A stretch of 64,000 nt of DNA from a virus (Duplodnaviria; Caudoviricetes), in the IMG/VR virus record IMGVR_UViG_3300025392_000002; one strand, given 5' to 3'. Below are positions 28,176 through 58,700 of this stretch, piece by piece. The first letter of the stretch is position 1; the number at the start of each line of letters is the position of its first letter. The notes under the pieces were generated by a model that made no database searches, was not told where the DNA came from, and worked only from the letters and a program-made list of their open reading frames with translations. The position numbers and the translations under genes were made by a program.

Positions 28176-29006
28176 ATGACTGCAAAAGTAAATTACCTAA
28201 ACAACAAGGATATGTTGTTAGAAATACATAGAAGTAAAACATCGTACTGTGTGTTTACTCAACCCGAATATCACCAATATGATATAATTTTGCCCAATGT
28301 AGACAAAATTAATATTCGAACTATTGCAGAGGCCAAACGGAATCGAGCAAAACGCATAGGAGATGCCGATTACCAACAGCGAAAAAAAGCTGGTGAAAAA
28401 ATCAAACAAGCTGATTGCGAAGTTGATTATAAAAAAATACCAAAGACAGACTTAGTATTCAGAATTATGACATTTGATCATATTCCGCTGAACAATACCC
28501 GTAAGAAGAATCCAAAAAGTCTTGCCGATCACAGGGACAAAGTAAACTTTCCTCCATTCCAGCATTGGAAATTTGACGATAAAGACGAACTGATTTGTGT
28601 TGGTAAAAGTCATTGGAAGGGTGATTTAGTCAAGGGCAAGTTTGATAAAGATGCTGGCCAAATTACTAACACTTTAGCTCGTATGATGTTAAAATTGTGT
28701 GAAAGATATGCTACTCGCGGTAACGTTCGTGGCTATACTTACAATGACGAAATGAAGGGACAGGCTATTTTGCAACTAACACAGATAGGACTACAGTTTG
28801 ATGAATCCAAATCCGATAACCCTTTTGCATATTTTACTGCCGCGGTTACTAATAGTTTTGTTCGCGTTATTAATATTGAAAAACGCAATCAAAATATTCG
28901 AGATGATATTTTAGAAATCAACGGTATGAATCCTAGTTATAGCAGAACTGGTGCTGGCGAACATGCGGCAGCATTGAAAAGACACAATGAGGATGCTAGT
29001 GAGTAA
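28176..29006 (+). CDS. gp55: Late-transcription sigma factor, gp55-like
   Basis: NYLNNKDML N-terminus; RGYTYNDEM and FDESKSDNPFAYFT..NSFVRVINIEK motifs; synteny with gp47/gp46. Confidence 0.85.
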   Translation: MTAKVNYLNNKDMLLEIHRSKTSYCVFTQPEYHQYDIILPNVDKINIRTIAEAKRNRAKRIGDADYQQRKKAGEKIKQADCEVDYKKIPKTDLVFRIMTFDHIPLNNTRKKNPKSLADHRDKVNFPPFQHWKFDDKDELICVGKSHWKGDLVKGKFDKDAGQITNTLARMMLKLCERYATRGNVRGYTYNDEMKGQAILQLTQIGLQFDESKSDNPFAYFTAAVTNSFVRVINIEKRNQNIRDDILEINGMNPSYSRTGAGEHAAALKRHNEDASE

Positions 29007-30012
29007 TTTATTTAAAAAAGTAGCTTGTTTTACAGATATACACTTTGGATTGAAATCTAACAGTAATGTACACAATCAAGATTGTGAAGATTTTGTAGAC
29101 TGGTATATTGCTAAAGCAAAGGAGGAAGGCTGTGATACAGGAATTTTTATGGGCGATTGGCACCACAATCGCAATAGTCTCAATATTACTACTATGGATT
29201 ATAGCCTTAGGGCTTTGGAAAAGCTGGGCCAAGCGTTTGATAATTTTTACTTTTTTCCTGGTAATCATGATCTTTACTATAAAGACAAGCGAGATATTCA
29301 TTCAGTCGAGTTTGGAAAGTATATTCCCGGAATCACAGTGGTTCATGAACCGACTACCGTTGGAAATGTCACGCTCTGTCCATGGCTTATAGGTGACGAA
29401 TGGAAAAGTTTAAAAGGTTCTAAGAGCAAGTATATCTTTGGACACTTTGAACTTCCATTGTTTTACATGAACGCAATGGTACAGATGCCGGATCACGGAG
29501 AGCTACAGGCCGCAGACTTGAAAGGTCCCGATTATGTATTTTCAGGACACTTTCATAAACGTCAACAACAGGGCAACGTTGTATATATTGGCAATGCTTT
29601 CCCGCACAACTATGCAGACACATGGGACGATGAACGCGGTATGATGATTTTAGAATGGGGTAAAGATCCTGTTTATCATACCTGGGATAATCAACCTACT
29701 TTCCGTACACTTAAACTTAGTGAACTAATCGACGGTGCTGATACAATCCTTAAATCTAAACAGCATTTACGTGTTACATTAGACATTGATATTACTTTTG
29801 AAGAAGCAAGTTTTATTAAAGAAAAGTTCATGGCAGATTACGATATCCGTGAGCTTACACTTATTGCTGAAAAGAAAGAAATTGAAATCAATACAAATAT
29901 TGACATACAGGCTTTTGAAAGTGTCGATCAAATTGTAAGTAGTCAAATTATTAATATCGACTCTGATACTTACGACAAAAACACACTTCTAGCCATTTAT
30001 AACAGCTTATGA
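28999..30012 (+). CDS. gp47: Recombination endonuclease subunit (Mre11/SbcD-like)
   Basis: Metallophosphoesterase motifs DIHFG, GDWHH, GNHD, GHFH. Likely GTG start at 28999 after a GAGGA SD (track start 28987). Confidence 0.92.
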   Translation: MSNLFKKVACFTDIHFGLKSNSNVHNQDCEDFVDWYIAKAKEEGCDTGIFMGDWHHNRNSLNITTMDYSLRALEKLGQAFDNFYFFPGNHDLYYKDKRDIHSVEFGKYIPGITVVHEPTTVGNVTLCPWLIGDEWKSLKGSKSKYIFGHFELPLFYMNAMVQMPDHGELQAADLKGPDYVFSGHFHKRQQQGNVVYIGNAFPHNYADTWDDERGMMILEWGKDPVYHTWDNQPTFRTLKLSELIDGADTILKSKQHLRVTLDIDITFEEASFIKEKFMADYDIRELTLIAEKKEIEINTNIDIQAFESVDQIVSSQIINIDSDTYDKNTLLAIYNSL

Positions 30013-31787
30013 TAAAAATTAAAGAATTAACCGTTAAGAATTTCATGAGTGTGGGTAACCAAACTCAAGCAGTGAATTTTGCCCAGCAGAACTTGACTCT
30101 TGTACTAGGTGAAAACTTGGATCAAGGAGGAGACGACAGCGGAAGTCGTAACGGTACGGGCAAAACAACCATTGTAAATGCTCTTAGTTATGCTTTATTT
30201 GGTAATGCCTTAACTAACATTAAAAAAGATAACCTTATTAATAAGATTAATAATAAGGGTATGTTGGTTACACTGGCATTTGAAAAAGACGGTATAGATT
30301 ATCGTATTGAGCGTGGACGTAAGCCTAATGTATTAAAGTTCTTTGTCAACGACCAAGAACAAGAAACCGCAGAAACAGATGACGCACAAGGAGATATGCG
30401 TGAAACTCAGAAAGACTTAGATGACTTACTGGGTATGAGTCACGATATGTTCAAGCACATTGTTGCCCTTAACACTTATACAGAACCTTTCCTAAGTATG
30501 CGGGCTAACGACCAGCGTGTTATCATCGAGCAATTACTAGGTATTACACTATTAAGTGAAAAAGCAGAAACACTTAAAGAATTAATTAGACAAACTAAAG
30601 ATTCTATTACACAAGAAACTGCTAATATTGAAGCGGCTAAGAAAAGTAATGAAAAAATACAGTTAAGTATTGATGGATTACTAACAAGACAAAGTGCTTG
30701 GAATACCCAGCATACAGAAGACTTGGAAAAAATCGGCCGTGCTATTATCGAACTTGAAAGCGTAGATATTACAGCTGAGCTTGCGAAGCACAGCGAGCTC
30801 AAAGAGTTCGATGAAAAAACAGCGAAGCTGAAAAGCCTAAATAAGGAACGAGCTACGTTAGATAGCGCGACAGCGCAAGCGGAGCGAAGCGTCACGAAGT
30901 ATGACGGCGAGCTCGCCAAACTGGCTAACAAGACCTGCCATGCTTGTGAACAATCCCTCCATGACCATAAACATGAAGAAATGACTCAGCTGGCACAAGG
31001 GCACCTTGATGAAGCGAAGAAATACTATGACAAGGTTGTTAAAGATAGGACTAAAATTCAAACGGAAATAGATGCAATTGGTGAAGTACCTGCTAGGCCC
31101 GTTACTTACTATGACACTATTGAGCAAGCACTCAAGCACCAGAATAATCTTAAAACCTTAGAAACACAGTTGACGATTCGCGCTGGGGAAACAGATCCCT
31201 ATCAAGAACAGATTGATGAGCTTACCGATACTGCTCTACAGGAAATCACATGGGATCAAGTCAACGACTTGACCAAGCTCAAAGAGCATCAAGAGTTTTT
31301 ACTTAAACTTCTTACCAGCAAGGACAGCTTTATTCGCAAGAAGATTATAGATCAAAACCTAGCTTATCTAAACAATCGTCTTACTTACTATCTAGATAAA
31401 ATGGGCTTACCGCACACAGTATTATTCCAGAATGATCTAACGGTTATGATTACACAGCTAGGGCAAGACTTGGATTTTGACAATCTAAGTCGAGGCGAAC
31501 GCAATAGGCTTATCCTATCCTTGTCTTGGAGTTTCCGTGATGTTTGGGAATCCTTATATCAAGGCATTAACCTCTTGTTCGTTGATGAGCTGATTGACAA
31601 CGGCCTAGATGCGTCGGGTGTAGAAGGTGCATTGGCAGTACTTAAGAAAATGGCTCGTGAACGCAAAAAGAACATATTCTTAATATCGCACAAGGACGAA
31701 CTGATTGGTCGTGTTAATAACGTATTAAAAGTTATTAAGGAAAATGGATTTACCAGTTATGCCAATGATTTAGAGATCAATGAGTAA
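30009..31787 (+). CDS. gp46: Recombination ATPase subunit (Rad50/SbcC-like)
   Basis: Walker A NGTGKT, CHAC zinc hook in the coiled coil, LSRGE signature, LFVDE Walker B, ISH motif. Confidence 0.93.
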   Translation: MIKIKELTVKNFMSVGNQTQAVNFAQQNLTLVLGENLDQGGDDSGSRNGTGKTTIVNALSYALFGNALTNIKKDNLINKINNKGMLVTLAFEKDGIDYRIERGRKPNVLKFFVNDQEQETAETDDAQGDMRETQKDLDDLLGMSHDMFKHIVALNTYTEPFLSMRANDQRVIIEQLLGITLLSEKAETLKELIRQTKDSITQETANIEAAKKSNEKIQLSIDGLLTRQSAWNTQHTEDLEKIGRAIIELESVDITAELAKHSELKEFDEKTAKLKSLNKERATLDSATAQAERSVTKYDGELAKLANKTCHACEQSLHDHKHEEMTQLAQGHLDEAKKYYDKVVKDRTKIQTEIDAIGEVPARPVTYYDTIEQALKHQNNLKTLETQLTIRAGETDPYQEQIDELTDTALQEITWDQVNDLTKLKEHQEFLLKLLTSKDSFIRKKIIDQNLAYLNNRLTYYLDKMGLPHTVLFQNDLTVMITQLGQDLDFDNLSRGERNRLILSLSWSFRDVWESLYQGINLLFVDELIDNGLDASGVEGALAVLKKMARERKKNIFLISHKDELIGRVNNVLKVIKENGFTSYANDLEINE

Positions 31788-32040
31788 ACACGTTGAACCC
31801 AGTTCCGTACAAAACGAAGAGTCGCATGAAAAGCTCATGCTGGCTTTTCGTGAGTACTTTAAAGCTAATCAAGACTGGCAAGCTAAGGGCACACGCCGTG
31901 CTGGGGAAAATATGCGCTACTGGTTGGCGCAGATACGCATTATTGCCAAGGACCGTAGGGCTCATGTGCAACAATATCGTGTGTGGTTAGATAGAGAAAA
32001 ACAAGCACGTAAGGATAAAAACAATGACAATACTATATAA
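31780..32040 (+). CDS. Small basic helical protein, possibly Hc1-like DNA-binding
   Basis: 86 aa; KGTRRAGENMRYWLAQIRIIAKDRR resembles the GxxxAGxRxRxxLxxIxxxxKxxR pattern of Hc1-like N-terminal domains; overlaps the gp46 stop. Confidence 0.45.
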   Translation: MSKHVEPSSVQNEESHEKLMLAFREYFKANQDWQAKGTRRAGENMRYWLAQIRIIAKDRRAHVQQYRVWLDREKQARKDKNNDNTI

Positions 32041-32896
32041 TGTTTGGTTGGACCGTGTTAAATTTACCTACAGATTGGAGGAACATCGTGTGGCCCGTGT
32101 GTGGGCTGACATTATGAAGCCTTTAAGTGTGACCAGCTTGTACAAAGGTGCTGATCCGTGGCACGGCAGACCCGAAGATCTAAAAAAACGCAGTACCGAG
32201 CTTAACTTTTTGATAGATGCAATCAACACATGGATTCCTGAAAAAATTCCTGGTCATTTTGATGCAAGTGATGCACAGGCCAGTTTGAATCTTCTACATA
32301 TAAATTTTCCACAGCAACACTATAAAGAAACTGATCCTGAAAAACTTTCTCAGTTGAGATACTACAATCACTTGCTACATCAACTTGAACAGTGCTTGTC
32401 CAGTATCAACAATCCTGTGGAAGATATTTCAATCATAGCAAGTCCTGATATTCCATCACGGTTAGTGCCGTTAGAAGAGGAGGATTATAAATTGTTTAAA
32501 AAGACATTTTTGTTTGGCGACTTGCTGTTGCACTATCCGCATGTGGGCCGACATCCTTATGAATTAGCCAGTCGCAAAGACGTGGATTGTCCTGCTGATC
32601 AAATTATATGTCAAGACACTATTACAGAAAGTCACAGTATGCGATTTGGTCCCAGTCATATGAGTGATGAAGAATTTAACGAATTTTATCGTACCAGCGG
32701 TATCACTTGGCCCTACAGCATTGATGATCCAAGACTGGCTGTGGGCTATATCAAATTAGGCACTCTATTGGCAGTGAACTATGAACGGCCACTCAAACAA
32801 CAGGTTAGACAAATAGTCAAGGCATCAACAAAAATTACAAATTGGCAAATATTTGACCAAAACCAAGAGGCAGAGGACCAGACAAACACTAACTAG
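32024..32896 (+). CDS. Hypothetical protein (290 aa)
   Basis: ORF with AAGGA SD; His-containing motifs (LNLLH, NHLLHQLE, GDLLLHYPHVGRH); no recognisable family. Confidence 0.75.
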   Translation: MTILYNVWLDRVKFTYRLEEHRVARVWADIMKPLSVTSLYKGADPWHGRPEDLKKRSTELNFLIDAINTWIPEKIPGHFDASDAQASLNLLHINFPQQHYKETDPEKLSQLRYYNHLLHQLEQCLSSINNPVEDISIIASPDIPSRLVPLEEEDYKLFKKTFLFGDLLLHYPHVGRHPYELASRKDVDCPADQIICQDTITESHSMRFGPSHMSDEEFNEFYRTSGITWPYSIDDPRLAVGYIKLGTLLAVNYERPLKQQVRQIVKASTKITNWQIFDQNQEAEDQTNTN

Positions 32897-32899
32897 TGT

Positions 32900-33325
32900 A
32901 TGTCTTGGTACTATGAAAATCAATTAATAGAAGAATTGCCCGAGGATTGTGTTGGATTTGTTTATCTAATTACAAATACAATTACAGGGCGTATGTACAT
33001 AGGCAAAAAACTAGCTAAATTTTCTAAAACTACCTACAAAGTAGTCAAGTTAAAAAACGGCACAAAGAAAAAAAAGAAAATCCGTGGTAAAATTGACTCA
33101 GACTGGCGTACCTATTATGGTAGCTCACCAGAACTGACCAAGGATATCACGCAGTTAGGTCAAGAAAACTTTCGCAGGGAAATACTTTTTTACTGTAAAT
33201 CCAAGGCAGAAACGTCATATATAGAGGCTCGTGAACAATTCAGCCGTCGTGTGCTGGAATCAAATGACTATTATAATGGTCATATTCAAGTGCGTGTACA
33301 CGGTTCACATATACTCAAATCATAA
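32900..33325 (+). CDS. Stand-alone GIY-YIG nuclease-domain protein (141 aa)
   Basis: GFVYLITN...YIGKK, YYGSS, FRREIL, conserved Glu (YIEA) and YYN. Lys-rich insert; no C-terminal DNA-binding domain. Confidence 0.85.
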   Translation: MSWYYENQLIEELPEDCVGFVYLITNTITGRMYIGKKLAKFSKTTYKVVKLKNGTKKKKKIRGKIDSDWRTYYGSSPELTKDITQLGQENFRREILFYCKSKAETSYIEAREQFSRRVLESNDYYNGHIQVRVHGSHILKS

Positions 33326-33329
33326 TAAT

Positions 33330-33720
33330 TTAGGCAGATAAAACACCAAATAAGCCTGCACTGGCGTTGTTAAAGTGCCCTTAAAGCTGGACCACGGGTC
33401 GCAGTCAATGGAATTCCTGCTTGGTGTCAGGGTTGTCAACTACTATCCTTAACAGGACGATGATGGAATATGCCTATAGAATCCGTTTAATTGACAAGGA
33501 AACTAATTTTTCAAGGCTAAAAGAGGGGTTGTAGCCCCACGTTTGTACTAATGTTAGCGTATTAGTGCAAGCCGCCGTCATATAAAGACAGCATGAGCAG
33601 GTACCGGATGACCGCCTGTGTTCTAGTGCTAACGCTAAGTGATATTGTTCGACTCAGATAATGTCCAAAATACTTTGCCCGCCAGGGCAAAGTGTGACTG
33701 AACGATCTAGATAATATATC
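33330..33720 (+). ncRNA. Putative large structured non-coding RNA of unknown class
   Basis: ORF-free and GC-richer than its flanks; about 10 helices whose G-U pairs work on the plus strand; 7-bp loop pseudoknot (33554-33560 with 33632-33638). Confidence 0.65.
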
Positions 33721-33722
33721 TT

Positions 33723-33793
33723 AACGCTTCGCGTTTTATAATAACTACTAAAGTTCGAGCGAAAGCGATGAACAGAAGAACGCTAGTTCTTCT
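33723..33793. repeat. Three closely spaced mini-hairpins
   Basis: AACGC-TTC-GCGTT (33723-33735), GC-GAAA-GC inside GTTC..GAAC, AGAAGAAC-GCTA-GTTCTTCT (33774-33793). Confidence 0.75.
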
Positions 33794-33804
33794 TTAAGTA
33801 CTAG

Positions 33805-33811
33805 ATAAATA
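33805..33811 (+). promoter_or_regulatory. Late promoter (ATAAATA)
   Basis: Box upstream of the 485-aa ORF. Confidence 0.7.
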
Positions 33812-33835
33812 TCATATCATGAGTAAACCACAAAT

Positions 33836-35293
33836 ATGAAAGTCGTAGAAATTATTAGTCTAAATGAATCTGATCCTAAAAAAGCTGTAGGTCTAGGTGA
33901 TAAAATAGCTAACTGGGCTCTTAGAAAAATTACGGGTGCAGGTACAGGTGCCGCCGCGGCAGAATTTATAAAAGCTAAAGATAAAGCTGTTTCGGCTCTT
34001 GTAAAAGCCATGGAAGAAAAAGCGGCCGCAGTAAAGCCTACAAATAAAATTATTGGAAAAGATGCCCATGAATTAACTGATACCGAAATAAACAATATTG
34101 TAGGCGAGGCTCTTGGAGATCTAGTTAGACTACCTGGTGATGTTTTTGTAAAAAAAGGTAGCCCTGATCATCTAGTACCTGTAGAATTTACTGTAAACGT
34201 GCCGAACAAGACACCGAGAAAAGTTCGTCGCCCTGGTGATCCTCCTCCGCCTCCTTCCACAACAACTAAAACTGAAGTACGTATGGTTCCTTGGACTGAA
34301 GCGCCAGCTGATGTGCAAGCAAAAATACGTCAAGAAATGGAATCTAGTAATTGGGTTACACAGAATCCTGCCGAGTATGAAAAAGTAAAAAAACAAGCAC
34401 TTGCTCAAGCAGAGGAACAGTACGATAAAGCAAATTTAGCTACTACTACTGGAGAAGCTGAAAGAAGATTTGACAAGATCAAAGACAAAGCATTAATGAC
34501 AAAAAGTTTTGGAGATTTTGTTGCCAAGTGGGGATTTGATGGATATGTATTATGGAATTGTTTTTGGCCTCCGTATTCACGTTTTCAAGATAAACTTGAA
34601 CAACTAAGAAATGATTTAAGTCAAAATAAGGCTAATGGACAAACTGTTTCAAAAGACATAGCAGAAAAATATTATCTAAATGCCTATGAAGCAGAAAAGA
34701 AAGTAATGATTGCAGAAGTAATACAGCTACTAGTAGTACAATTTGCAACAAAAATTCCTGCATCTGAAAAAGGCACATTTGGAGTTAGTCCTCTCAATGG
34801 AGCCACATGGACAACAATTACTCATTTATTTTTACCGTTCCTACGATTGGCTGAAGCCGATACTAAACAAAAAACAAATATAATTATAAAAGCAATTAAT
34901 AATCCTGTTACACGAGTAGCAATGATCAGTCTAGTGAATTGGTTACAAGTTTCGGAAGGCCTTGGGGCGGCAATGGTTAATTATGTTTTGTTTACTATTC
35001 CTTTACCTCCGGGAGTTCCTAATATAGAAGTTAAACCTGGAAATTGGGTCACTTCTAAGATTAGTAGTATGATACCAGATCTAGACAGCAAGGCTAAAGA
35101 GCTTCTAGCAAAAGAAGAAGCAGATAAAAAGAAGAAAGATGCAGAAACACCTGCACCGCAATCTGAACAGCCTCCGGTACAACAGCCAGTACAACAGCCA
35201 GAGCAACCAGTACAACAACCTAATAGTACTCCATCTACAACTACCCAACCGGGTAGTCGAATCGACAGACTAGACAGCAAGTACGGAAGTTAA
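33836..35293 (+). CDS. Hypothetical late protein, possible internal head/ejection protein
   Basis: 485 aa behind a late promoter; MKVVEIISLNE N-terminus; Pro/Gln-rich linkers and hydrophobic segments. Confidence 0.65.
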   Translation: MKVVEIISLNESDPKKAVGLGDKIANWALRKITGAGTGAAAAEFIKAKDKAVSALVKAMEEKAAAVKPTNKIIGKDAHELTDTEINNIVGEALGDLVRLPGDVFVKKGSPDHLVPVEFTVNVPNKTPRKVRRPGDPPPPPSTTTKTEVRMVPWTEAPADVQAKIRQEMESSNWVTQNPAEYEKVKKQALAQAEEQYDKANLATTTGEAERRFDKIKDKALMTKSFGDFVAKWGFDGYVLWNCFWPPYSRFQDKLEQLRNDLSQNKANGQTVSKDIAEKYYLNAYEAEKKVMIAEVIQLLVVQFATKIPASEKGTFGVSPLNGATWTTITHLFLPFLRLAEADTKQKTNIIIKAINNPVTRVAMISLVNWLQVSEGLGAAMVNYVLFTIPLPPGVPNIEVKPGNWVTSKISSMIPDLDSKAKELLAKEEADKKKKDAETPAPQSEQPPVQQPVQQPEQPVQQPNSTPSTTTQPGSRIDRLDSKYGS

Positions 35294-45060: not shown

Positions 45061-45146
45061 ATACATTGTCACGCTTGCATGGTGCAAGTTTATGCGGATA
45101 ACCCAACCGCGTATGACATAGAACGTCAAATTTAAGGAGAAACAAA
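45057..45146 (+). promoter_or_regulatory. Late promoter plus structured 5' leader (three-way junction)
   Basis: ATAAATA 45057-45063; TGTCA/TGACA helix enclosing two 7-bp hairpins; then AAGGAG SD. Confidence 0.65.
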
Positions 45147-46898
45147 ATGGGACGTCCATTAAATAAAAAATATTTCGGTAAGAGAAATACAGGTGCCGCA
45201 GGCACATTTGGTAATACAAACTTATTACCAACAGACTATGACCTAGGTGGTCTTAAAACAAGCGGTGTTACCGTTGGTACAGCAGGTTCTTATACACCTA
45301 CACAAGCTAACACATTAACTGTAACATTTCCAAAACCAGCACTAGCTTCCGAAGGCGGTGTAACAGCAGTTGGTACTCCTTCATTCACTTATGTAAGTGG
45401 TGGTTCATTAAGTGGTACACAAACTCAAGCCTATTTAGGTGGCGCTGGTAACCCAGTAACAGCTACAGTTGGTACTAACGTAGTTACATTTACTCCAACA
45501 CTAACAGCAAGCACAACTGGTATTTCAGTTACTAGTGTTAGCTCATCTGGTGTTGCAGTAGTAGCAAGTGGTACATACGTAAAAGGCCAAGACTTTGTAT
45601 TATCAGGTGCTTCAGCTGGTAACGGAACATATTATGTTCAAACTGGTGGTACATCAGTAACAAGCATTACAATCACAACAAGTTATGCATTGGCTATTGG
45701 ATCAACAACTCCAGTAGTAACAGCATCAACTGGTGGTACAGCAGTACTAGGCGCAACTTATAATACAATCGCTAGTATTGCTCTAGCAAGTGGTGGTACA
45801 TTTACAGCCGCACAAACTACAGCATGGAACGCCGCAAGTGCTCCATCATTAGTACAAGCAACAAGTTCAGGCCTAGGCGCAACATTGACAGTTTCAAGTT
45901 CAGCATTTGGTGTTGGCGCAGTTGCATTAACTACTCCTGGTAACGGTTATATCAATGCTGTTTCAGTTACTCCAAGTATCACAAGTTCAACATTGACAAC
46001 AATTACAACATATACATCAACTGGTTTAAGTGCAACTACAGTTGGTGGTGTATTTGCAATGACACCAGCACAATCAGCTGGTACATTCTATGTTGGGCAA
46101 GTTGTTACATTAACCGGTACAGCAGGCGGCGCGGGTTCAATTGGTAGTTATTCAACTGGTAACAGTTACCTTGTTAAAGCAACTGATGGTATCAGTACAC
46201 TTACTTTAACTAACATTGATGGTTCAGCAATAACAACAGTAGTTGGTGCAATCAGCGGTTTATCAATCGTTCTTTACAAAGAAACAGTTACATCAACAGA
46301 CCAATTAGTTCCAGGGTTGAAAGTAGTTACAACTGGTACAGGCGGTAGTTTAACAGCCGGTACATATTATATCATTGCAGTTAACGGCTCAACTGAAATT
46401 GTTCTAAGTAGCTCAGCAGGTGGTAATGCAGTAGCAGTTACAACAGCAACTTCAACAGCAACTTGCGTATTCAGTGGTAACATTGCCGCAACGTTTAGTT
46501 CAGGTGCCGCTACTGCTAACTTGACATTTGCCGCACAAGTAACAACTGGTTATACTGGTAACTATGCCGCTATCCAGGCACAGTCATTAGCTACAACTGG
46601 TGGTGTTGTTCGTCAAGATACAGACATTATCAAACAAGAAAACACACAACGTTTCCGTGTTGAAAGTGCTGATGGTGTATTCTATGCTAAGTTAGTTAAT
46701 GCTTTTCCAACAGTCGGTGGAACAATAGCTATCAATGCTACTGATTCTGCTGGTGGTACATACTGGGTAACTAAGATCACTAATCGTCGTTGCCGTGTAA
46801 CTCGTAACACAGGTACACAGTTTACAGACGGATCACAAGTTAACTGGACATTTGGCTCAGCAGTAGCTAACGTTTCAGTTAAGATCGATAACGCTTAA
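45147..46898 (+). CDS. Abundant virion structural protein (head decoration/fibre-like)
   Basis: 583 aa, Thr/Gly/Ala-rich, codon bias like gp23; MGRPLNKKYFG N-terminus. Confidence 0.65.
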   Translation: MGRPLNKKYFGKRNTGAAGTFGNTNLLPTDYDLGGLKTSGVTVGTAGSYTPTQANTLTVTFPKPALASEGGVTAVGTPSFTYVSGGSLSGTQTQAYLGGAGNPVTATVGTNVVTFTPTLTASTTGISVTSVSSSGVAVVASGTYVKGQDFVLSGASAGNGTYYVQTGGTSVTSITITTSYALAIGSTTPVVTASTGGTAVLGATYNTIASIALASGGTFTAAQTTAWNAASAPSLVQATSSGLGATLTVSSSAFGVGAVALTTPGNGYINAVSVTPSITSSTLTTITTYTSTGLSATTVGGVFAMTPAQSAGTFYVGQVVTLTGTAGGAGSIGSYSTGNSYLVKATDGISTLTLTNIDGSAITTVVGAISGLSIVLYKETVTSTDQLVPGLKVVTTGTGGSLTAGTYYIIAVNGSTEIVLSSSAGGNAVAVTTATSTATCVFSGNIAATFSSGAATANLTFAAQVTTGYTGNYAAIQAQSLATTGGVVRQDTDIIKQENTQRFRVESADGVFYAKLVNAFPTVGGTIAINATDSAGGTYWVTKITNRRCRVTRNTGTQFTDGSQVNWTFGSAVANVSVKIDNA

Positions 46899-52799: not shown

Positions 52800-55700
52800 A
52801 TGGCATCAGAATTTAAAATTGGAAGATTAAGATTTACATGGAAAGGTGTGTGGACACCAAATACTGTTTACGCTCGAGATGACGTAGTTAGCTACCAAGG
52901 TAAAACATACGCATGTGTTCTTCCAAATACCTCAAGTTCAACAAATTTTTATAATGACTTGTATTATGTAACTCAAACAGGTGCAAGCACACCTTATTGG
53001 AGTTTAATTGTTGACGGAAAAACATTTGTTAGTTCGAATAATGGACAGTGGCAAACTGGCCAGGCATATAGCTTAGGTAATATTATTATCTTTGGCGGTG
53101 TGGTGTATTATTGTAGTACAGCTCATACTAGTACAGCATTTGCATCTGATATCGCAAACTGGACTGAGTATACAGAATTCAATGCTTGGAGATCGGTAGG
53201 TTGGGTTCCAAATTATGCGTATGGTAAAAACGATGTTGTAAAATACGGTGGTATAGTTTATAAGTGTATCGCTAATCATACTAGTGCCGCTACAGCCGCA
53301 TTAGGTTTAGAAGCCAATCAAAGTGCGTGGACCATTGTCGATAGCGGAATAGAATACAAAGGAACTTGGACTACAAGTACTAGATATAAAACAAATGATA
53401 TTGTAAAGTATGGCCCAGATATTTGGATTTCAAATAGCGGCCACACAAGTTCTATATCTGTAGGACTTAGCACAGTCTCAATTACTAATACAACAGGTCA
53501 GTTTTCTTATTCAGGTCCTGCATTAACAGTAGGACAATCTATTACAGTTACAGGGCAATTATCGGCAACTGCATCCGGATCAATTTCTTTATATAGCGGA
53601 AGCACAGCAATATATTATGTTAGCGCAACTAACGGATCGAATACATTTGTTTTGTCAGATACATACGCACATGCTCTTGCTGGAACAAATCAATTAACAA
53701 CCGTTGCTGGAACAACAACTGGTTTAATTTTTAGTATAAGCGGTTTTGATCAAGGTAAATGGTCAATTTGGATGCCAGGTTTAGAATATCTTGGAGCATG
53801 GAATGCCGCTACAACTTATCAAACTGGCGATACTACAATGTATGGTGGTTATACATACATAAGTAAAACTGCAAACAACATTGGTAACACTCCATCTGTA
53901 GATTCAACAGACTGGGCAGTTGAAACACAAGGATTTAATTTTAGGGGTGAATGGGGCCAGACAACTCCTTACAAAGTTGGTGATGTTATACGTCGCCACG
54001 GTATGTTGTTTGATGCTATTGCTGATAACCTTGGACAAGACCCAAACTCATACAGCGTAACAAAAACTTATTCTTCAACAGGTAGCTCTGGTACTATATT
54101 AAAACTTAATTCTGTAACAGGTATAACGGTTGGTATGAATATTATTGGTGCTGGTTTTACAGCCGGCCAAACTGTAATTGCTATCGATACAACTGCAATC
54201 ACTGTTACAATAAGTAGTGTCAATGATACTCCTTTAGTTGATGCACAGCTTCTTTATTTTGTAGGTATTAATTATATCTATTGGAAGGCAGTTATTCCTG
54301 GAAGATTATGGACTAAGTCATGGGTTACTGCAACAACATATACAATTGGTGACCTAGTAGTTTGGCAAAATGGTACTTATGTTTGTGTACAAACACACTT
54401 GTCAGGATATTCAACTAGTCGACCAGATCTCGACACTACAAATACATACTGGATTTTTTACATCCCACATGCTAGAAAAAATGCTATGAATACTGTAGGG
54501 GATCTTGAATACTATTCAAGCACTACTAGTTCATACACTGCATTACCTATTGGAACAAATCAGTATACATTAAAAGCAGTTTCTACAACAGGTGCTAACG
54601 GAGTTATAACAACATCTCCTAGTTGGAATAAAATTAATCAAGTAGGTGCTGTTTATTATGTTTCAACAAAAACTGGTATAGATCGTCCAGACTATGGTAC
54701 AACTTGGGATCAACCTTGGAAATCTATTGCCTATGCTTGTAACTATATTGGTCAAGGTACATTATATCAAGGAGCAGTTGCTAATCTTGTAGCAAACAAA
54801 ACTTGGATGACTACTGAAATGTACTACTGGATGGTTTATCAAAAATCAATCAGTGCAAATGGGTTCACTTCAAGCTCTGTATTTGATCAGACAAAGACTA
54901 TAAGGGATGCTGGTTATATTATTGATGCACTTGTATATGATATGGCACGAGGCGGAAATAGTCAAATTGTTGCGGCAACTCTAGCTTATTTTGCATTTGG
55001 TAGCACTAACACAATTATCAATAGTACAGTATTAGCCGAGTTACCTTATTTTATTGCCGCATTAAATCAACTAGCATCGCTTATACAAAATGTATTAACC
55101 AATACTGTTCCTGCGCTAACTGTCGGATCCAACAATTATACAGGATCGATTTATCAAACATTAAATTCAATTGTTCCAGTTGTGTATCAAAGTTTTGGAA
55201 CTACAGATTCTACTTCGCCTGCCTATGCGGCATCGTTGTTGACTATTGTTACAACAGCATTGACTAATCAAAATACTTCGTCAGTACCGACACCAAATAC
55301 TGGTACTACTGCAAGTATTTTTATTAAAACTGGAAGTTATTATGAAACACTGCCAATTACAGTTCCAGAAAACACATCTATAATTGGTGACGAGCTACGT
55401 AGTGTAACAGTAGCACCTGCAATAAGTTTAACTTTACAATGTACTGCCGCAACCGGATCAAGTAATTTATTCACAGTAAATTCTACAAATCAGTTTACAG
55501 ATCAAATGGCTTTACAATTTGCCAACCCATCTACTCCAGCAGTTATTGGAACTAATCCTTACTATGGGTTTGGTGGTATTACTCCCGGAACAACTTATTA
55601 TGTAATAGGATCTAGTATTTCATCGACTCAGTTTAAAGTTACAGCATCTACTGGTACATATTATGGAGTTAGCGGAACAAATATTGCATCTTCTGGAATA

Positions 55701-58700
55701 AATGCAACATTTAACGTATCTCCAAATCAAAATGGAACTTATACTGTAGCTGTTGTTTATCCAGGTAGTGGATATGCTCAAGGAGATACTATAAGAATAT
55801 CTGGAAGTAGTGTAGGTATTCCTACAACTACCGCAGGATTATTTGTTACAGGTTTCCAATATGCTATTACATCATTGGGCACAACAGATTTTACAGCAAT
55901 TGGTGCAAGTGCAAATACAATTGGTGGAAGATTTGTAGCAACAGGTCCTGGATCTGGTACTGGTACTGCTACAAATACCTACAATGATATTACTGTAACT
56001 GTGCTTACAGTATCTTCTGGAGGTATTGCTACTATTAATACAACTAGCACTTCAGTATTTCCATTGGTTACTGGTTCTGGAACTGTTGCTACAGGAACCC
56101 ATATGGTAATATATGCCGGTGACTGTGTTAAAGATATGTTCCGTTTGAGAAACGGTACAGGTCTACGTAACATGACTTTCACTGGATTGTTAGGTTCGTT
56201 AACTACCGCCGATCAATTTTATATACAGCGTCCAACAGCAGGCAGTTATGCTTGCCTAGATCCAGGTACAGGACCAAACGACACTACTGCTTGGATCTTC
56301 CGACGTAGTCCTTATGTACAAAACGTTACAGCATTTGGTAATGGTTGTACTGGATTGAAGATTGATGGAACCTTGCATAACGGTGGAAATAAATCGATCG
56401 TTTGTAATGACTTTACACACATTATTAGTGATGGTATTGGTATTTGGTGTACTGGCCCAAGTGCATTAACAGAAGCTGTTTCAGTATTCTCATACTATGG
56501 ATATACTGGTTACTTTGCAGAAGCTGGTGGAAGAATTCGTGCTACCAACGGTAACACTTCATATGGTACATACGGAGTTATTGCTGAAGGGTATGACTCT
56601 ACCGAAACCCCAGCAACTGGTATTGTTTTTAATCAAAGTGCTCAAGTACAGGCATCGGTACAACAAGCATTTGGTTCTCAAGCACAGTTAGTAAGATTAA
56701 ATTTCTCTAATGCAGGATCTGCATATAATACAACAACTACTAACTTATTAAATTATAGTAATAACTTTTTAGGTGCTAATTGGTTTACAGATACTAACGT
56801 AACATTTAATAAAAATACCATTGCGTTAACTGGACTAACTGAAGCATGGAGTATGACTGGCGGAACCACTGGCCCAGATGGTAGCTATGTTTATCAAAAT
56901 ATCAGTGTGCCAGCACCAGGATTTACATATTCTGGTTTAAGCGGCGTAAACATTTCTGGTAGCGGTGGTACCGGAGCTAATAGTCCAGCAACATTTAATA
57001 TTACTGTTACTGCAACATCATATGTTGTTACCGTTGCTAGCGGTGGCGGCGGTTATGTTTCTGGAAATCAAATATCTATTTCTGGAAGTCAATTAGGCGG
57101 TGTTAATAGTGTTAACGATTGCGTTATCACTGTAGCTAGTACCGCAGGTAGTGCAGTATATACAATCACTAGTTCAGGAACTGTTCCAACTAATAGTGCT
57201 TTAGGTTATACACTGAGTGTATATGTTAAACAAGGCACGTCTGCGATTGTTGACTTGTACGCATTATTTTCCGGATCTTCTAGTCCAGCATTGACTAGTG
57301 GTATCAGTTATAACTTTAATACAGGTGTAGTAACACCTACAAGTTCCAACGGCGGTTTAACTCCTAGTAGATACGGAGCAATTAATCAACAATTATCGTC
57401 CACCGATAATACAGCTGGCTGGGTAAGATTATGGTTCTCAGTATATGATACTTCTGGGTTGAATACAACTTTACAATATAGATTGTATCCAAGAGGTTAT
57501 AGCGGATTCACTGGACAATACACATATATCTATGGATCACAAGTAGAATTATCAAAATCTAATTACACACCAAGTTTCTATTTAGAAGTTGCTAACGTTT
57601 CTAAATTTACTGCTTATGCTAACTTTAACGTTAGCGGTGCGGGTACGGGCGTTGTTACTATTGGCGATGAACTTAGAACTCAAGCAGTATTTCAAGCTCG
57701 TGTTGTAACTGATAGTAATGGTGTTACAGGCGGCTCAGGATACTTAACTGCAAGTAATAATGCACAGGGTGGAACAAATCAATATTTACAACTAGCACAG
57801 TCTGATACAAATACTAACGGAAACTATACAGGTATGCGTGCCTTTGTACAATCTGGTACAGGTGCAGGACAATATGGTTATATTTCATACTATAACGCTT
57901 CAACTAAGACAGCTTGGATTTTAAAAGAATCATTTGCAACTTTACCAGTGACTGCTACAACTGCGTCTAGTAGTTTGTTTTCATTGACTGGCGCTACAAC
58001 TGCAACTTTATATTTGAATCAACCAGTACAGTTTATTCCAACATACTATACAACATCAGTAAGTTCTACTTCTCTTGGAACAACCACAGTTACAACTTCA
58101 ATCGGCGGCACAACAAACACGTTCTCTGTTTCCAGTACTGTTGGTCTGTATTATAATCAAGCAGTTACATTTACTGGATCAACTTTTAGTACTGTAACTT
58201 CGGGCAACACTTACTATATATTTGCAATTATTGATGCAACAACTATTCAAATAACTAATCAACCTTATGGTACTGTTTGGCAGTTGACAAATTCAGTTGG
58301 TACAATGACCATGAATTTTAACTCCAATACTAGCTATTTGTCAGGATCTACAACTAACATGGTTGTTAACTATCCAATACAGTTTACTGGATCAGCACTA
58401 GGTGGATTATCTGTTGGTACAGTATATTATATTAATGATATTATTAGTACTAGTAACTTTACAGTTTCAGCATTATTAATTACATCAACTGTGACTGCAA
58501 CTACAGCTGGAACAGTTAACGGTGCAACAAATTCATACTGGGGCTCTAACTTACCTGTTCTCACTGTAGCTTCTACCGCAGGACTAATAAGTTTAAATCC
58601 AATTGTGTTTACAAGTCCAATGATTGGCGGCCTTGTTGACTCTCAAAAATATTATATTGCTAAAATTGTAGACTCATATACTTTTGCAGTAGCAACAACT

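What the first reader, a model, noticed from the sequence alone, without database searches (positions are those of the whole stretch)
32890..33720. Minimal GIY-YIG nuclease followed by a ~400-nt pseudoknotted putative ncRNA: candidate new nuclease-RNA system
SEEN: in an otherwise gap-free genome, ~500 nt with no ORF follow a 141-aa GIY-YIG gene. The region is dense with helices: GCACU/AGUGC (33358-62/33374-78); GACC/GGUC (33390-400); UUGUCAA/UUGACAA (33433-39/33491-97) enclosing two sub-hairpins; GGGGU/GCCCC (33525-38); a 12-bp stem (33541-52/33561-72) whose loop UUAGCGU is complementary to ACGCUAA at 33632-38 (pseudoknot); a compound stem 33590-33630; a T-loop-like G-UUCGACU-C (33647-55); and a 10-bp stem 33671-94. 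CGCCAG (33680-85) around that last loop matches CUGGCG (33361-66) at the first hairpin, a possible 5'-3' kissing contact. The many G-U pairs favour plus-strand RNA over a DNA cruciform. KNOWN: GIY-YIG homing endonucleases such as I-TevI and Seg need extra DNA-binding modules; this protein has none but carries a Lys-rich insert (KLKNGTKKKKKIRGK). INFERENCE: protein and RNA may be co-transcribed and form an RNP (RNA-scaffolded or RNA-guided nuclease). Alternatively the RNA is a ribozyme or an origin primer processed by the nuclease. I could not match it by eye to tmRNA, RNase P or a group I intron.
Basis: partly seen in the sequence, partly recalled or inferred. Interest (0 to 1): 0.88.

Follow-up and report, generated by a model that had tools for sequence, protein, structure and literature searches.

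The report
Full-length Polynucleobacter-1 twin-box phage RNA
The gene-free stretch behind a small nuclease gene of this uncultured freshwater T4-like phage encodes a real, doubly knotted non-coding RNA of about 440 bases; its first third is the catalogued orphan motif Polynucleobacter-1, nothing indicates that it guides the nuclease, and it shows one 7-letter word twice to a reader that is still unknown.

Summary
Window 33326-33816 is the largest internal ORF-free gap. About 33353-33795 is a plus-strand structured RNA, conserved in more than 180 IMG/VR phage loci. On 60 diverse homologues 90.8% of pair cells are standard pairs (78% shuffled, about 40% slid), and 68 of 107 pairs show compensatory changes. 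The proposed 5'-3' kissing contact is not conserved.

The RNA is not wholly new. Positions 33353-33497 are Rfam Polynucleobacter-1 (84.9 bits). The 2010 description already placed that motif downstream of PSSM2_218-like genes, which I show to be this GIY-YIG family. The other two thirds are not in Rfam; their core resembles cow-rumen-2 weakly.

The nuclease-RNA complex idea is unsupported. The protein family occurs in about 490 phage records, and the four I examined (Melnitz, ACP17, BUCT-ZZ01, P-SSM2) show no sign of the RNA. The RNA also occurs without the GIY-YIG gene, once behind a PD-(D/E)XK nuclease and once in a non-T4 context. Near-identical proteins accompany different RNA alleles.

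Two 7-nt boxes (33656-62 and 33709-15) are identical in 130 of 130 sequences at their two most variable positions, with no partner inside the RNA. This scan has reported the same RNA family on many other genomes. Function is unknown.

The parts
32900..33325 (+). GIY-YIG nuclease gene (141 aa), SegE-type catalytic domain only; neighbour of the RNA
   Evidence: Pfam PF19835 at 1.8e-33 covering 1-123 of 123 profile positions, and phrog_447. G19, Y22, Y33, G35, E109 and N126 are invariant in 40 homologues. AF2 model pLDDT 90; the only meaningful fold match is the I-TevI catalytic domain, probability 0.91-0.96, TM 0.65-0.67 by target. The Lys-rich stretch is the tip of a long beta-hairpin (strands 40-50 and 56-66).
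33353..33795 (+). Whole structured non-coding RNA, about 440 nt; the ends are inferred, not mapped
   Evidence: Conserved at 68-84% identity across the whole gap in relatives. nhmmer finds it in 114 of 120 core-pattern loci. Covariation. One copy in the window.
33353..33497 (+). Domain 1: Polynucleobacter-1 RNA (Rfam RF01718): P1, P2, P3 and a long-range stem enclosing two hairpins
   Evidence: 84.9 bits against a gathering score of 37, model positions 1-141 of 141. Ten relatives score 59-118 bits. Helices 1-6.
33513..33538 (+). Conserved linker AAGGCUAAAAGAG plus small hairpin 33525-28/33535-38
   Evidence: Conservation line; helix 7 is 84% paired.
33541..33638 (+). Domain 2: double-pseudoknot core. 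P6 33541-44/33569-72 and 33547-52/33561-66; PK1 33554-60/33632-38; P7 33577-81/33608-12; P8 33591-94/33626-29; P9 33598-601/33615-18 enclosing the near-invariant loop UACCGGAUGACCG
   Evidence: Helices 9-16: PK1 98.3% paired with 7 of 7 compensatory, P7 99-100%, P8 99.6% with 4 of 4 compensatory. Weak full-length match to cow-rumen-2: 16 bits and 20.9 bits, E 0.073, in L007.
33639..33665 (+). Twin module 1: GUGA, 3-bp stem, 7-nt loop UUCGACU, box AGAUAAU (33656-33662)
   Evidence: helices 17-18.
33672..33693 (+). Hairpin P11 between the twin modules
   Evidence: Helix 19: 89.6% paired, mostly invariant, one compensatory pair.
33694..33715 (+). Twin module 2: GUGA, 3-bp stem, 7-nt loop AACGAUC, box AGAUAAU (33709-33715)
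   Evidence: Box positions match module 1 in 130/130, 130/130, 129/130, 129/129 and 124/128 sequences. Position 1 changes at least 28 times on a tree built from the rest of the RNA.
33723..33735 (+). Hairpin P12 with near-invariant GCUUCGC centre
   Evidence: Helix 21: 94.7% paired, 3 of 5 compensatory. GCTTCGC is conserved at 90% or more.
33736..33752 (+). A/U-rich linker, hypervariable in length and sequence
   Evidence: Alignment columns about 549-586.
33753..33773 (+). Hairpin P13 with GNRA tetraloop (GC-GAAA-GC)
   Evidence: Helices 22-23. The loop varies among GAAA, GCAA, GUAA and GGAA.
33774..33793 (+). Terminal 8-bp hairpin P14; probable 3' end of the RNA
   Evidence: Helix 24: 98.5% paired, 6 of 8 compensatory. 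It does not score as an intrinsic terminator. Homology stops here in loci where a minus-strand gene follows.
33805..33811 (+). ATAAATA, resembling a T4-type late promoter, for the downstream gene; not part of the RNA
   Evidence: Conserved ATAAATA before the downstream ATG in the alignments. That this is a late promoter rests on the T4 consensus TATAAATA, from my own knowledge.
33836..35293 (+). Downstream variable gene (485 aa; no Pfam or PHROG family)
   Evidence: Replaced by other ORFs or absent in relatives.

Best explanation
Window 33353-33795 (+) is the gene of a stable, trans-acting, highly structured non-coding RNA of about 440 nt. It is the full-length form of the RNA family of which Rfam holds only the first 141 positions (Polynucleobacter-1, RF01718).

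Shown:
- The RNA is made of modules: the Polynucleobacter-1 domain; a double-pseudoknot core with a near-invariant 13-nt loop; two look-alike small hairpin modules that each carry the same 7-nt box; and three terminal hairpins.
- The fold is kept by compensatory changes on the plus strand.
- The two boxes are kept identical to each other while they vary between phages, and nothing inside the RNA covaries with them.

Inferred:
- The RNA is made by read-through from the GIY-YIG transcript and ends at hairpin P14.
- It works as a scaffold or decoy that offers two identical sites to an outside, sequence-specific reader.
- The GIY-YIG gene is a neighbour, not a subunit. Either the adjacency is inherited gene order, or the nuclease gene is a selfish element parked beside an invariant RNA gene.
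For: - Rfam match of 84.9 bits.
- Conserved in more than 180 viral loci.
- Covariation: 90.8% of cells paired against 78.2% shuffled and 32-43% slid; 68 of 107 pairs compensatory; 0 of 500 shuffles reach the observed value on any measure.
- G-U 1446 against A-C 404, and GNRA loop variants.
- No conserved ORF.
- Twin boxes identical in 130 of 130 sequences, with A/A 64 and G/G 66 at position 1. Sites 5 nt apart assort freely (four combinations), yet twins 53 nt apart never differ at box positions 1 and 2. At least 28 changes on the tree. The top covariation partner of each of the four variable box positions is its own twin.
- Independence from the nuclease: L146, L183 and the loci with inserted ORFs; four examined phages that have the protein show no RNA; discordant identity profiles.
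Against:
- No promoter-like or terminator-like site flanks the RNA.
- No reader of the boxes was found: no complementary word lies at a consistent place within 6 kb, and the word is only mildly enriched in the window (25 against 14.9 expected).
- Box identity could partly reflect two or more old alleles shuffled by recombination rather than many independent double changes.
- In this clade the RNA is almost always next to the nuclease gene, so a functional tie cannot be excluded.
Confidence: 0.6

Rival explanations
1. Selfish nuclease beside its target. The GIY-YIG gene, and in L146 a PD-(D/E)XK gene, are free-standing homing-type endonuclease genes. They sit next to the RNA gene because its invariant sequence supplies a cleavage site in phages that lack them. 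On this view the RNA's own function has nothing to do with the nuclease. This explains the adjacency and is compatible with the best explanation.
For: - Two unrelated nuclease families occupy the same slot directly 5' of the RNA.
- L170 carries a 355-aa SegE-type gene (PF19835) and a second ORF with a GIY-YIG-like N-terminus in the same region.
- Other ORFs are inserted at this junction in several loci, and a 290-aa ORF specific to the window lies just upstream.
- Gene and RNA show mosaic, discordant identity.
- From my own knowledge: T4 SegB lies in the tRNA gene cluster and cuts it in related phages.
Against: - The gene is present in nearly every member of the clade. No empty-site allele was seen in a T4-like context.
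- The protein is a catalytic domain only (141 aa) and lacks the DNA-binding domain of I-TevI and the Seg proteins.
- Homologues are a conserved gene of cyanomyophages at other genome positions (T4-GC 213 in P-SSM2).
Confidence: 0.3
2. One reading: protein and RNA form a complex, an RNA-scaffolded or RNA-guided GIY-YIG nuclease.
For: - Adjacency on the same strand in more than 100 loci, with no terminator between.
- A Lys-rich beta-hairpin arm on the protein.
- A hypervariable A/U-rich segment at 33736-52 that could in principle be a guide.
Against: - The protein family is far wider than the RNA.
- The RNA occurs without the protein.
- Inserted ORFs separate gene and RNA in five loci.
- Proteins 99% and 95% identical go with different box alleles, and the same allele goes with proteins less than 65% identical.
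- The Lys-rich arm is part of the Pfam family model, not an insert special to this clade.
Confidence: 0.04
3. The RNA is a ribozyme, for example one that processes itself or acts on another substrate. The near-invariant loop UACCGGAUGACCG inside two pseudoknots would be its active centre.
For: - Size, two pseudoknots and blocks of near-invariant sequence at 33586-33720.
- A similar loop-in-helix motif is kept in cow-rumen-2 RNAs of unrelated phages.
Against: - No match to any ribozyme family of Rfam at E up to 10.
- Nothing points to a cleavage site or a substrate.
- The twin boxes are not explained.
Confidence: 0.1
4. The element acts as DNA. It would be an origin or regulatory region in which the twin boxes (TAGATAAT-like, 53 bp apart) are protein-binding or -10-like sites and GCGAAGC forms a minus-strand mini-hairpin.
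For: - The boxes resemble a -10 hexamer and lie about five helical turns apart.
- GCTTCGC is near-invariant.
- Perfect stems at the 3' end.
Against: - 68 compensatory pairs including long-range pairs and pseudoknots, the G-U over A-C bias, and GNRA loops all point to plus-strand RNA.
- The promoter scan finds nothing above chance.
Confidence: 0.05

Closest known systems
Polynucleobacter-1 RNA motif (Rfam RF01718; Weinberg et al. 2010, Genome Biol 11:R31, PMC2864571)
   Same: 33353-33497 matches the whole model at 84.9 bits. The gene context is the same: the 2010 supplement says most examples lie downstream of GOS11034 genes with possible homology to PSSM2_218. PSSM2_218 is the P-SSM2 homologue of this GIY-YIG protein. 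The environment is also the same (fresh water and estuary), and the function is unknown in both.
   Different: Rfam models 141 nt, and the paper saw no example in a purified phage. Here the motif is only the first third of an RNA of about 440 nt. The two pseudoknots, the twin boxes and the three 3' hairpins are not catalogued. All examples I found are on viral contigs or small MAG contigs.
cow-rumen-2 RNA (Rfam RF02947)
   Same: The core 33541-33638 aligns end to end with the model. Both have a hairpin with a UUAGC-type loop, then GCCGCC, then an outer helix, then an inner helix around UAC(A/C)GGAUGACC, then GUAA. True cow-rumen-2 RNAs are also phage-borne.
   Different: The scores of 16-21 bits are far below the gathering score of 66. 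The reciprocal search is partly circular, because its target loci were chosen by a shared motif. cow-rumen-2 is about 106 nt. In the roughly 70 nt printed after its core I saw no twin boxes, and a Polynucleobacter-1 domain was not searched for. It has no GIY-YIG neighbour.
Large phage-associated orphan RNAs (GOLLD, ROOL, HEARO/omega RNA)
   Same: Large, intricately folded RNAs often encoded by phages or mobile elements.
   Different: No Rfam match to any of them. No RuvC or HNH effector is present. No guide at an RNA end. The nuclease and the RNA occur independently of each other.
I-TevI and T4 Seg endonucleases (GIY-YIG homing enzymes); the T4 segB-tRNA cluster arrangement
   Same: SegE-type GIY-YIG catalytic domain and an I-TevI-like fold. 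The nuclease gene lies beside a stable-RNA gene, as segB does in T4 (my own knowledge).
   Different: Only 141 aa, with no linker or DNA-binding domain. Homing has not been shown. The gene is nearly fixed in the clade.

Membership tests
Polynucleobacter-1 RNA (RF01718) | Covariance-model score at or above Rfam's gathering score, over the full model | tested here: met
   84.9 bits against 37, model positions 1-141 of 141, E 1.4e-18. Ten relatives score 59-118 bits.
Polynucleobacter-1 RNA (RF01718) | Model helices kept by compensatory change | tested here: met
   Helices 1-6: P1 4 of 5 pairs compensatory, long-range stem 9 of 10, inner hairpin 99.2% paired.
Polynucleobacter-1 RNA (RF01718) | Location downstream of a GOS11034 / PSSM2_218-like gene, as first described | tested here: met
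   The supplement text. The homologue of the window's GIY-YIG protein in P-SSM2 is PSSM2_218.
cow-rumen-2 RNA (RF02947) | Score at or above the gathering score (66 bits) | tested here: not met
   16.0 bits in the window and 20.9 bits in L007. True members score 90-110 bits.
cow-rumen-2 RNA (RF02947) | Shared order of conserved motifs and helices (a remote relation, not membership) | tested here: inconclusive
   Full-length alignments in both directions, but the loci used had been picked by two of the shared motifs.
GIY-YIG nuclease, SegE type (Pfam PF19835) | Profile match above the curated cut-off, and conserved GIY, YIG, Glu and Asn residues | tested here: met
   115.8 bits against 25. G19, Y22, Y33, G35, E109 and N126 are invariant in 40 sequences. 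Fold closest to the I-TevI catalytic domain.
Homing endonuclease (Seg / I-TevI type) | Separate C-terminal DNA-binding domain | tested here: not met
   141 aa, of which residues 3-129 are the catalytic-domain match. The model shows one domain plus a beta-hairpin arm. L170 has a 355-aa form.
Homing endonuclease (Seg / I-TevI type) | Presence/absence polymorphism between related genomes, and a cleavage site in the allele that lacks the gene | tested here: inconclusive
   Replaced by a PDDEXK_15 gene in L146 and absent in L183, but present in nearly all other loci. Cleavage cannot be tested here.
RNA-guided nuclease systems (IscB/TnpB omega RNA, HEARO) | Obligate co-occurrence of nuclease and RNA | tested here: not met
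   Protein present, no sign of the RNA: Melnitz, ACP17, BUCT-ZZ01 (no Rfam or profile hit) and P-SSM2 (next gene follows directly). RNA without protein: L146 and L183.
RNA-guided nuclease systems (IscB/TnpB omega RNA, HEARO) | Hypervariable guide segment at one end of a conserved scaffold | tested here: inconclusive
   The only hypervariable stretch is the internal A/U-rich linker 33736-52. No target search was possible.
tRNA, tmRNA, RNase P RNA, group I intron | Detection by ARAGORN or by Rfam models | tested here: not met
   ARAGORN finds none in the window. No such Rfam match at E up to 10 in 33250-33900.

The most novel reading that the evidence does not exclude
The RNA is a new class of large functional phage RNA. 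Its two identical, fast-changing boxes would base-pair with, or be bound by, two copies of a host- or rival-specific molecule, for instance a defence RNA, a repeat-derived RNA or a dimeric defence protein. It would then be an RNA decoy tuned to each host, built around a catalytic or scaffold core that it shares with cow-rumen-2 RNAs of rumen jumbo phages.
Probability: 0.12. Interest if true: 0.85.

Novelty: new variant of a known kind. Interest (0 to 1): 0.55.

Why it matters
RNAs of more than 400 nt with several pseudoknots and blocks of invariant sequence are rare. When such RNAs have been solved, they have usually turned out to be ribozymes, ribonucleoprotein scaffolds or guide RNAs.

This one is widespread: more than 180 loci here and at least 120 core matches in IMG/VR. 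Rfam holds only its first third, so genome annotation misses most of it.

The twin boxes give a concrete experimental handle: mutate one box, mutate both, and pull down whatever binds. The possible link to cow-rumen-2 would join two orphan motifs into one phage RNA superfamily.

For the question that was asked, the practical result is negative. This is not evidence for a GIY-YIG ribonucleoprotein or an RNA-guided nuclease.

Tried and rejected
- **Kissing contact** 33361-66 with 33680-85: no covariation, and three of its six positions are standard pairs in only 20-54% of relatives.
- **GenBank phage records:** blastn with the gap found nothing.
- **tRNA or tmRNA:** none.
- **Promoter and terminator scan:** nothing above chance near the RNA.
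- **Small ORFs in the gap:** not conserved.
- **Reader of the boxes, complement search:** I looked for the reverse complement of each phage's own box within 6 kb. The one apparent peak, 1.4-2 kb upstream, is a conserved gp46 coding motif (Y-Y-L-D-K-M-G) that does not change with the box allele.
- **Reader of the boxes, word count:** AGATAAT occurs 25 times in the window against 14.9 expected, and 2 of 100 shuffles reach that.
- **Third covarying column inside the RNA:** none.
- **Proteins shared between the L183 stretch and the window:** none.
- **Bacterial genomes:** six matches, five on MAG contigs of 1.5-4.5 kb and one on a 57-kb MAG contig; no isolate genome. The Polynucleobacter genome copy named in 2010 could not be fetched.
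- **PDB sequence search with the protein:** no significant match. Foldseek E-values are weak, and only the I-TevI catalytic domain has high probability.
- **Reciprocal model search against cow-rumen-2 loci:** 17-19 bits, but partly circular.
- **T4 endonuclease II (denA) as positional analogue of the protein:** considered because the Melnitz and BUCT-ZZ01 homologues follow the nrd genes. Not tested.
Full report
**Setting.** The window is part of an uncultured T4-like myophage. The gene order is gp47-like (28987-30012), gp46-like (30009-31787), an 86-aa ORF, a 290-aa ORF (32024-32896), the GIY-YIG gene (32900-33325), a gap, and then a 485-aa gene (33836-35293). Relatives in IMG/VR share this order. 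They lack the 290-aa ORF, however, and the gene after the gap is replaced or missing. The closest isolates by the GIY-YIG protein are the Methylophilales phages Melnitz (49% identity), followed by many Kyanoviridae. No whole genome is held for the window.

**The observation.** The gap 33326-33816 is the largest internal ORF-free stretch of the window. It is richer in G+C than the window as a whole (43.6% against 37.6%). It folds better than shuffles on the plus strand (z -4.3) than on the minus strand (z -2.5). Its small ORFs are not kept open in relatives.

Eighty loci fetched through the protein nearly all have a gap of 450-520 nt. That gap is 68-84% identical to the window's over almost its whole length.

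I also searched IMG/VR with the most conserved 17-mer of the RNA, independently of the protein.

**Structure.** I aligned 130 distinct full-length copies to a profile. Mutual information picked out the helices and the pseudoknot without any prior structure. I then wrote a structure of 107 pairs and counted it on a separate MAFFT alignment of 60 diverse copies (A1). The result:
- 90.8% of cells are standard pairs, against 78.2% in shuffles and 32-43% when the partners are slid.
- 68 pairs have changes on both sides.
- The covariation score is 0.391 against 0.169.
- No shuffle out of 500 reaches the observed value on any measure.

The predicted pseudoknot (33554-60 with 33632-38) is the cleanest element, 98.3% paired with 7 of 7 pairs compensatory.

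GUCAU (33577-81) pairs with AUGAC (33608-12). That segment lies in the loop closed by 33598-601/33615-18, inside 33591-94/33626-29.

G-U pairs outnumber A-C 3.6 to 1, and the P13 loop varies within GNRA. Both fit a plus-strand RNA. The proposed kissing contact between the first hairpin loop and the 33680-85 loop is not conserved.

**What is already known.** Positions 33353-33497 are Rfam Polynucleobacter-1, at 84.9 bits against a gathering score of 37, over the full model. All ten relatives that I scanned match too.

The only paper in the library that names the motif is Weinberg et al. 2010. Its supplement says the motif was found in environmental samples and one Polynucleobacter genome. It adds that its 3' half is not always detected. 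It places most examples downstream of GOS11034 genes with possible homology to PSSM2_218, and it saw none in a purified phage.

I located the P-SSM2 homologue of the window's protein, and it is PSSM2_218. So the gene-RNA linkage was recorded in 2010, although the gene was not recognised then as a GIY-YIG nuclease.

The remaining 300 nt or so have no Rfam family.

**A possible second relative.** The best sub-threshold match of the core 33541-33638 is cow-rumen-2 (RF02947), with full-length alignments at 16 bits in the window and 20.9 bits (E 0.073) in L007.

Both RNAs have, in the same order:
- a hairpin with a UUAGC-type loop;
- GCCGCC;
- an outer helix;
- an inner helix around UAC(A/C)GGAUGACC;
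- GUAA.

I fetched cow-rumen-2 loci with a motif pattern. Seventy-two look genuine by motif spacing, and seven scanned loci score 90-110 bits. They lie on viral contigs, several of them very large, with up to three copies per contig. They have no GIY-YIG neighbour.

A model of my core (R1) finds them end to end at 17-19 bits. Because these loci had been chosen by two of the shared motifs, this is a lead and not proof.

**The protein.** It matches Pfam SegE_GIY-YIG along the whole profile. The motif residues are invariant in 40 homologues. The predicted structure (pLDDT 90) resembles only the I-TevI catalytic domain. The Lys-rich stretch is the tip of a long beta-hairpin that belongs to the family profile, so it is not a clade-specific insert. 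There is no DNA-binding domain.

**Is it a nuclease-RNA system?** The evidence is against it.
- The protein family is in 494 phage records. Melnitz, ACP17 and BUCT-ZZ01 show no sign of the RNA. In P-SSM2 the next gene follows directly.
- The RNA occurs without the gene. In L146 a PDDEXK_15 endonuclease gene sits in the same slot. In L183 the RNA (96.8 bits for domain 1) lies between an HTH gene and a D-Ala-D-Ala carboxypeptidase gene, near a DNA ligase, with no GIY-YIG.
- In L016, L097, L105, L155 and L162 another ORF separates gene and RNA.
- Identity profiles are discordant. L004 is about 90% identical in the gene but about 75% in the RNA, while L036 shows the reverse.
- Proteins 99% identical (window and L004) and 95% identical (L014 and L015) accompany different box alleles.

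Two unrelated nuclease families in the same slot fit the habit of free-standing homing-type genes to settle beside conserved genes. However, no cleavage site or empty allele was shown.

**The twin boxes.** Two small modules, 33639-65 and 33694-715, share one plan: RUGR, a 3-bp stem, a 7-nt loop and a 7-nt box (AGAUAAU in the window).

Across 130 distinct sequences the boxes vary. Position 1 is A 64 times and G 66 times. Position 2 is G, C or A. Position 5 is A or G. Position 7 is U, A or G.

The two copies nevertheless agree in 130/130, 130/130, 129/130 and 124/128 cases. A loop position 5 nt away assorts freely with box position 1, giving all four combinations, so simple linkage does not explain the match.

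On a tree built from the rest of the RNA, position 1 changes at least 28 times. Recombination inflates this number, so I read it only as 'several times'.

For each of the four variable box positions (1, 2, 5 and 7) the best covarying column is its own twin. I found no complementary word at a fixed place nearby. The word is only slightly enriched in the window.

Identity, rather than complementarity, points to one outside reader that meets both sites.

**Earlier work in this scan.** After I had seen the identity covariation, I looked up the scan's notes. The same RNA family has been reported on many other genomes: 131 notes in at least 82 genomes hold the search words. Follow-up agents reached the same reading as mine: a full-length Polynucleobacter-1 RNA, twin boxes, the nuclease as a neighbour. 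My tests agree with theirs.

- the PSSM2_218 identification;
- the PD-(D/E)XK replacement in L146;
- the protein-allele discordance;
- the cow-rumen-2 lead.

**Verdict.** This is a real and interesting RNA of unknown function. It is an extended variant of a catalogued orphan family, and there is no evidence for a new nuclease-RNA system.

Noticed in passing
window 45073-45149 (+): Second Rfam match: freshwater-2 RNA (RF02980, 64.6 bits against 49.9). It ends at the ATG (45148) of the next ORF and is preceded by CATAAATAC, which resembles a T4-type late promoter. It looks like a 5' leader of a late gene.
   Followed up: partly
window 32024-32896 (+): A 290-aa ORF with no Pfam or PHROG family lies between the 86-aa ORF and the GIY-YIG gene. 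It is absent from all relatives compared, so it is an insertion specific to this phage at a junction where other loci also carry inserted ORFs.
   Followed up: partly
L146 8819-9385: In one otherwise syntenic relative, a 'Phage putative PDDEXK endonuclease' gene (PF24608, 5.6e-30) replaces the GIY-YIG gene directly upstream of the RNA.
   Followed up: partly
L183 7509-7983: A divergent full-length copy of the RNA, with AGAUGAA twice, in a non-T4 context: ATP-dependent DNA ligase, WYL_2 and HTH_39 upstream, Peptidase_S11 and an Fe-S assembly protein downstream. Its domain 1 scores higher against Rfam (96.8 bits) than the window's.
   Followed up: partly
L213-L332 (for example L213 12093-12197; L270): cow-rumen-2 RNAs (90-110 bits) lie on IMG/VR viral contigs, some over 400 kb, with up to three copies per contig. 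They often sit about 170 nt upstream of a conserved gene that begins MKSEKLDLN. L270 also carries a tmRNA gene (133.5 bits).
   Followed up: partly
window 33726-33732: GCTTCGC is near-invariant in the P12 hairpin. On the minus strand it reads GCGAAGC, which from my own knowledge is a very stable DNA mini-hairpin. The outer stem covaries, which fits either RNA or single-stranded DNA.
   Followed up: no
window 52800-61610 (+): A single ORF of 2936 aa, followed by another long ORF that runs off the end of the window.
   Followed up: no
window 33836-33870 and relatives (alignment A1, columns 698-730): The genes that follow the RNA differ in length and sequence between phages but share a conserved start (M-K-V/I, then E-I-I), as if a variable body were joined to a constant N-terminus.
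   Followed up: no
L209, L204-L208: The RNA also occurs on contigs binned into bacterial MAGs (Flavobacteriales, 'Bacteroidetes', 'Bifidobacterium'). Five are 1.5-4.5 kb and one is 57 kb. Most likely these are phage DNA mis-binned.
   Followed up: no
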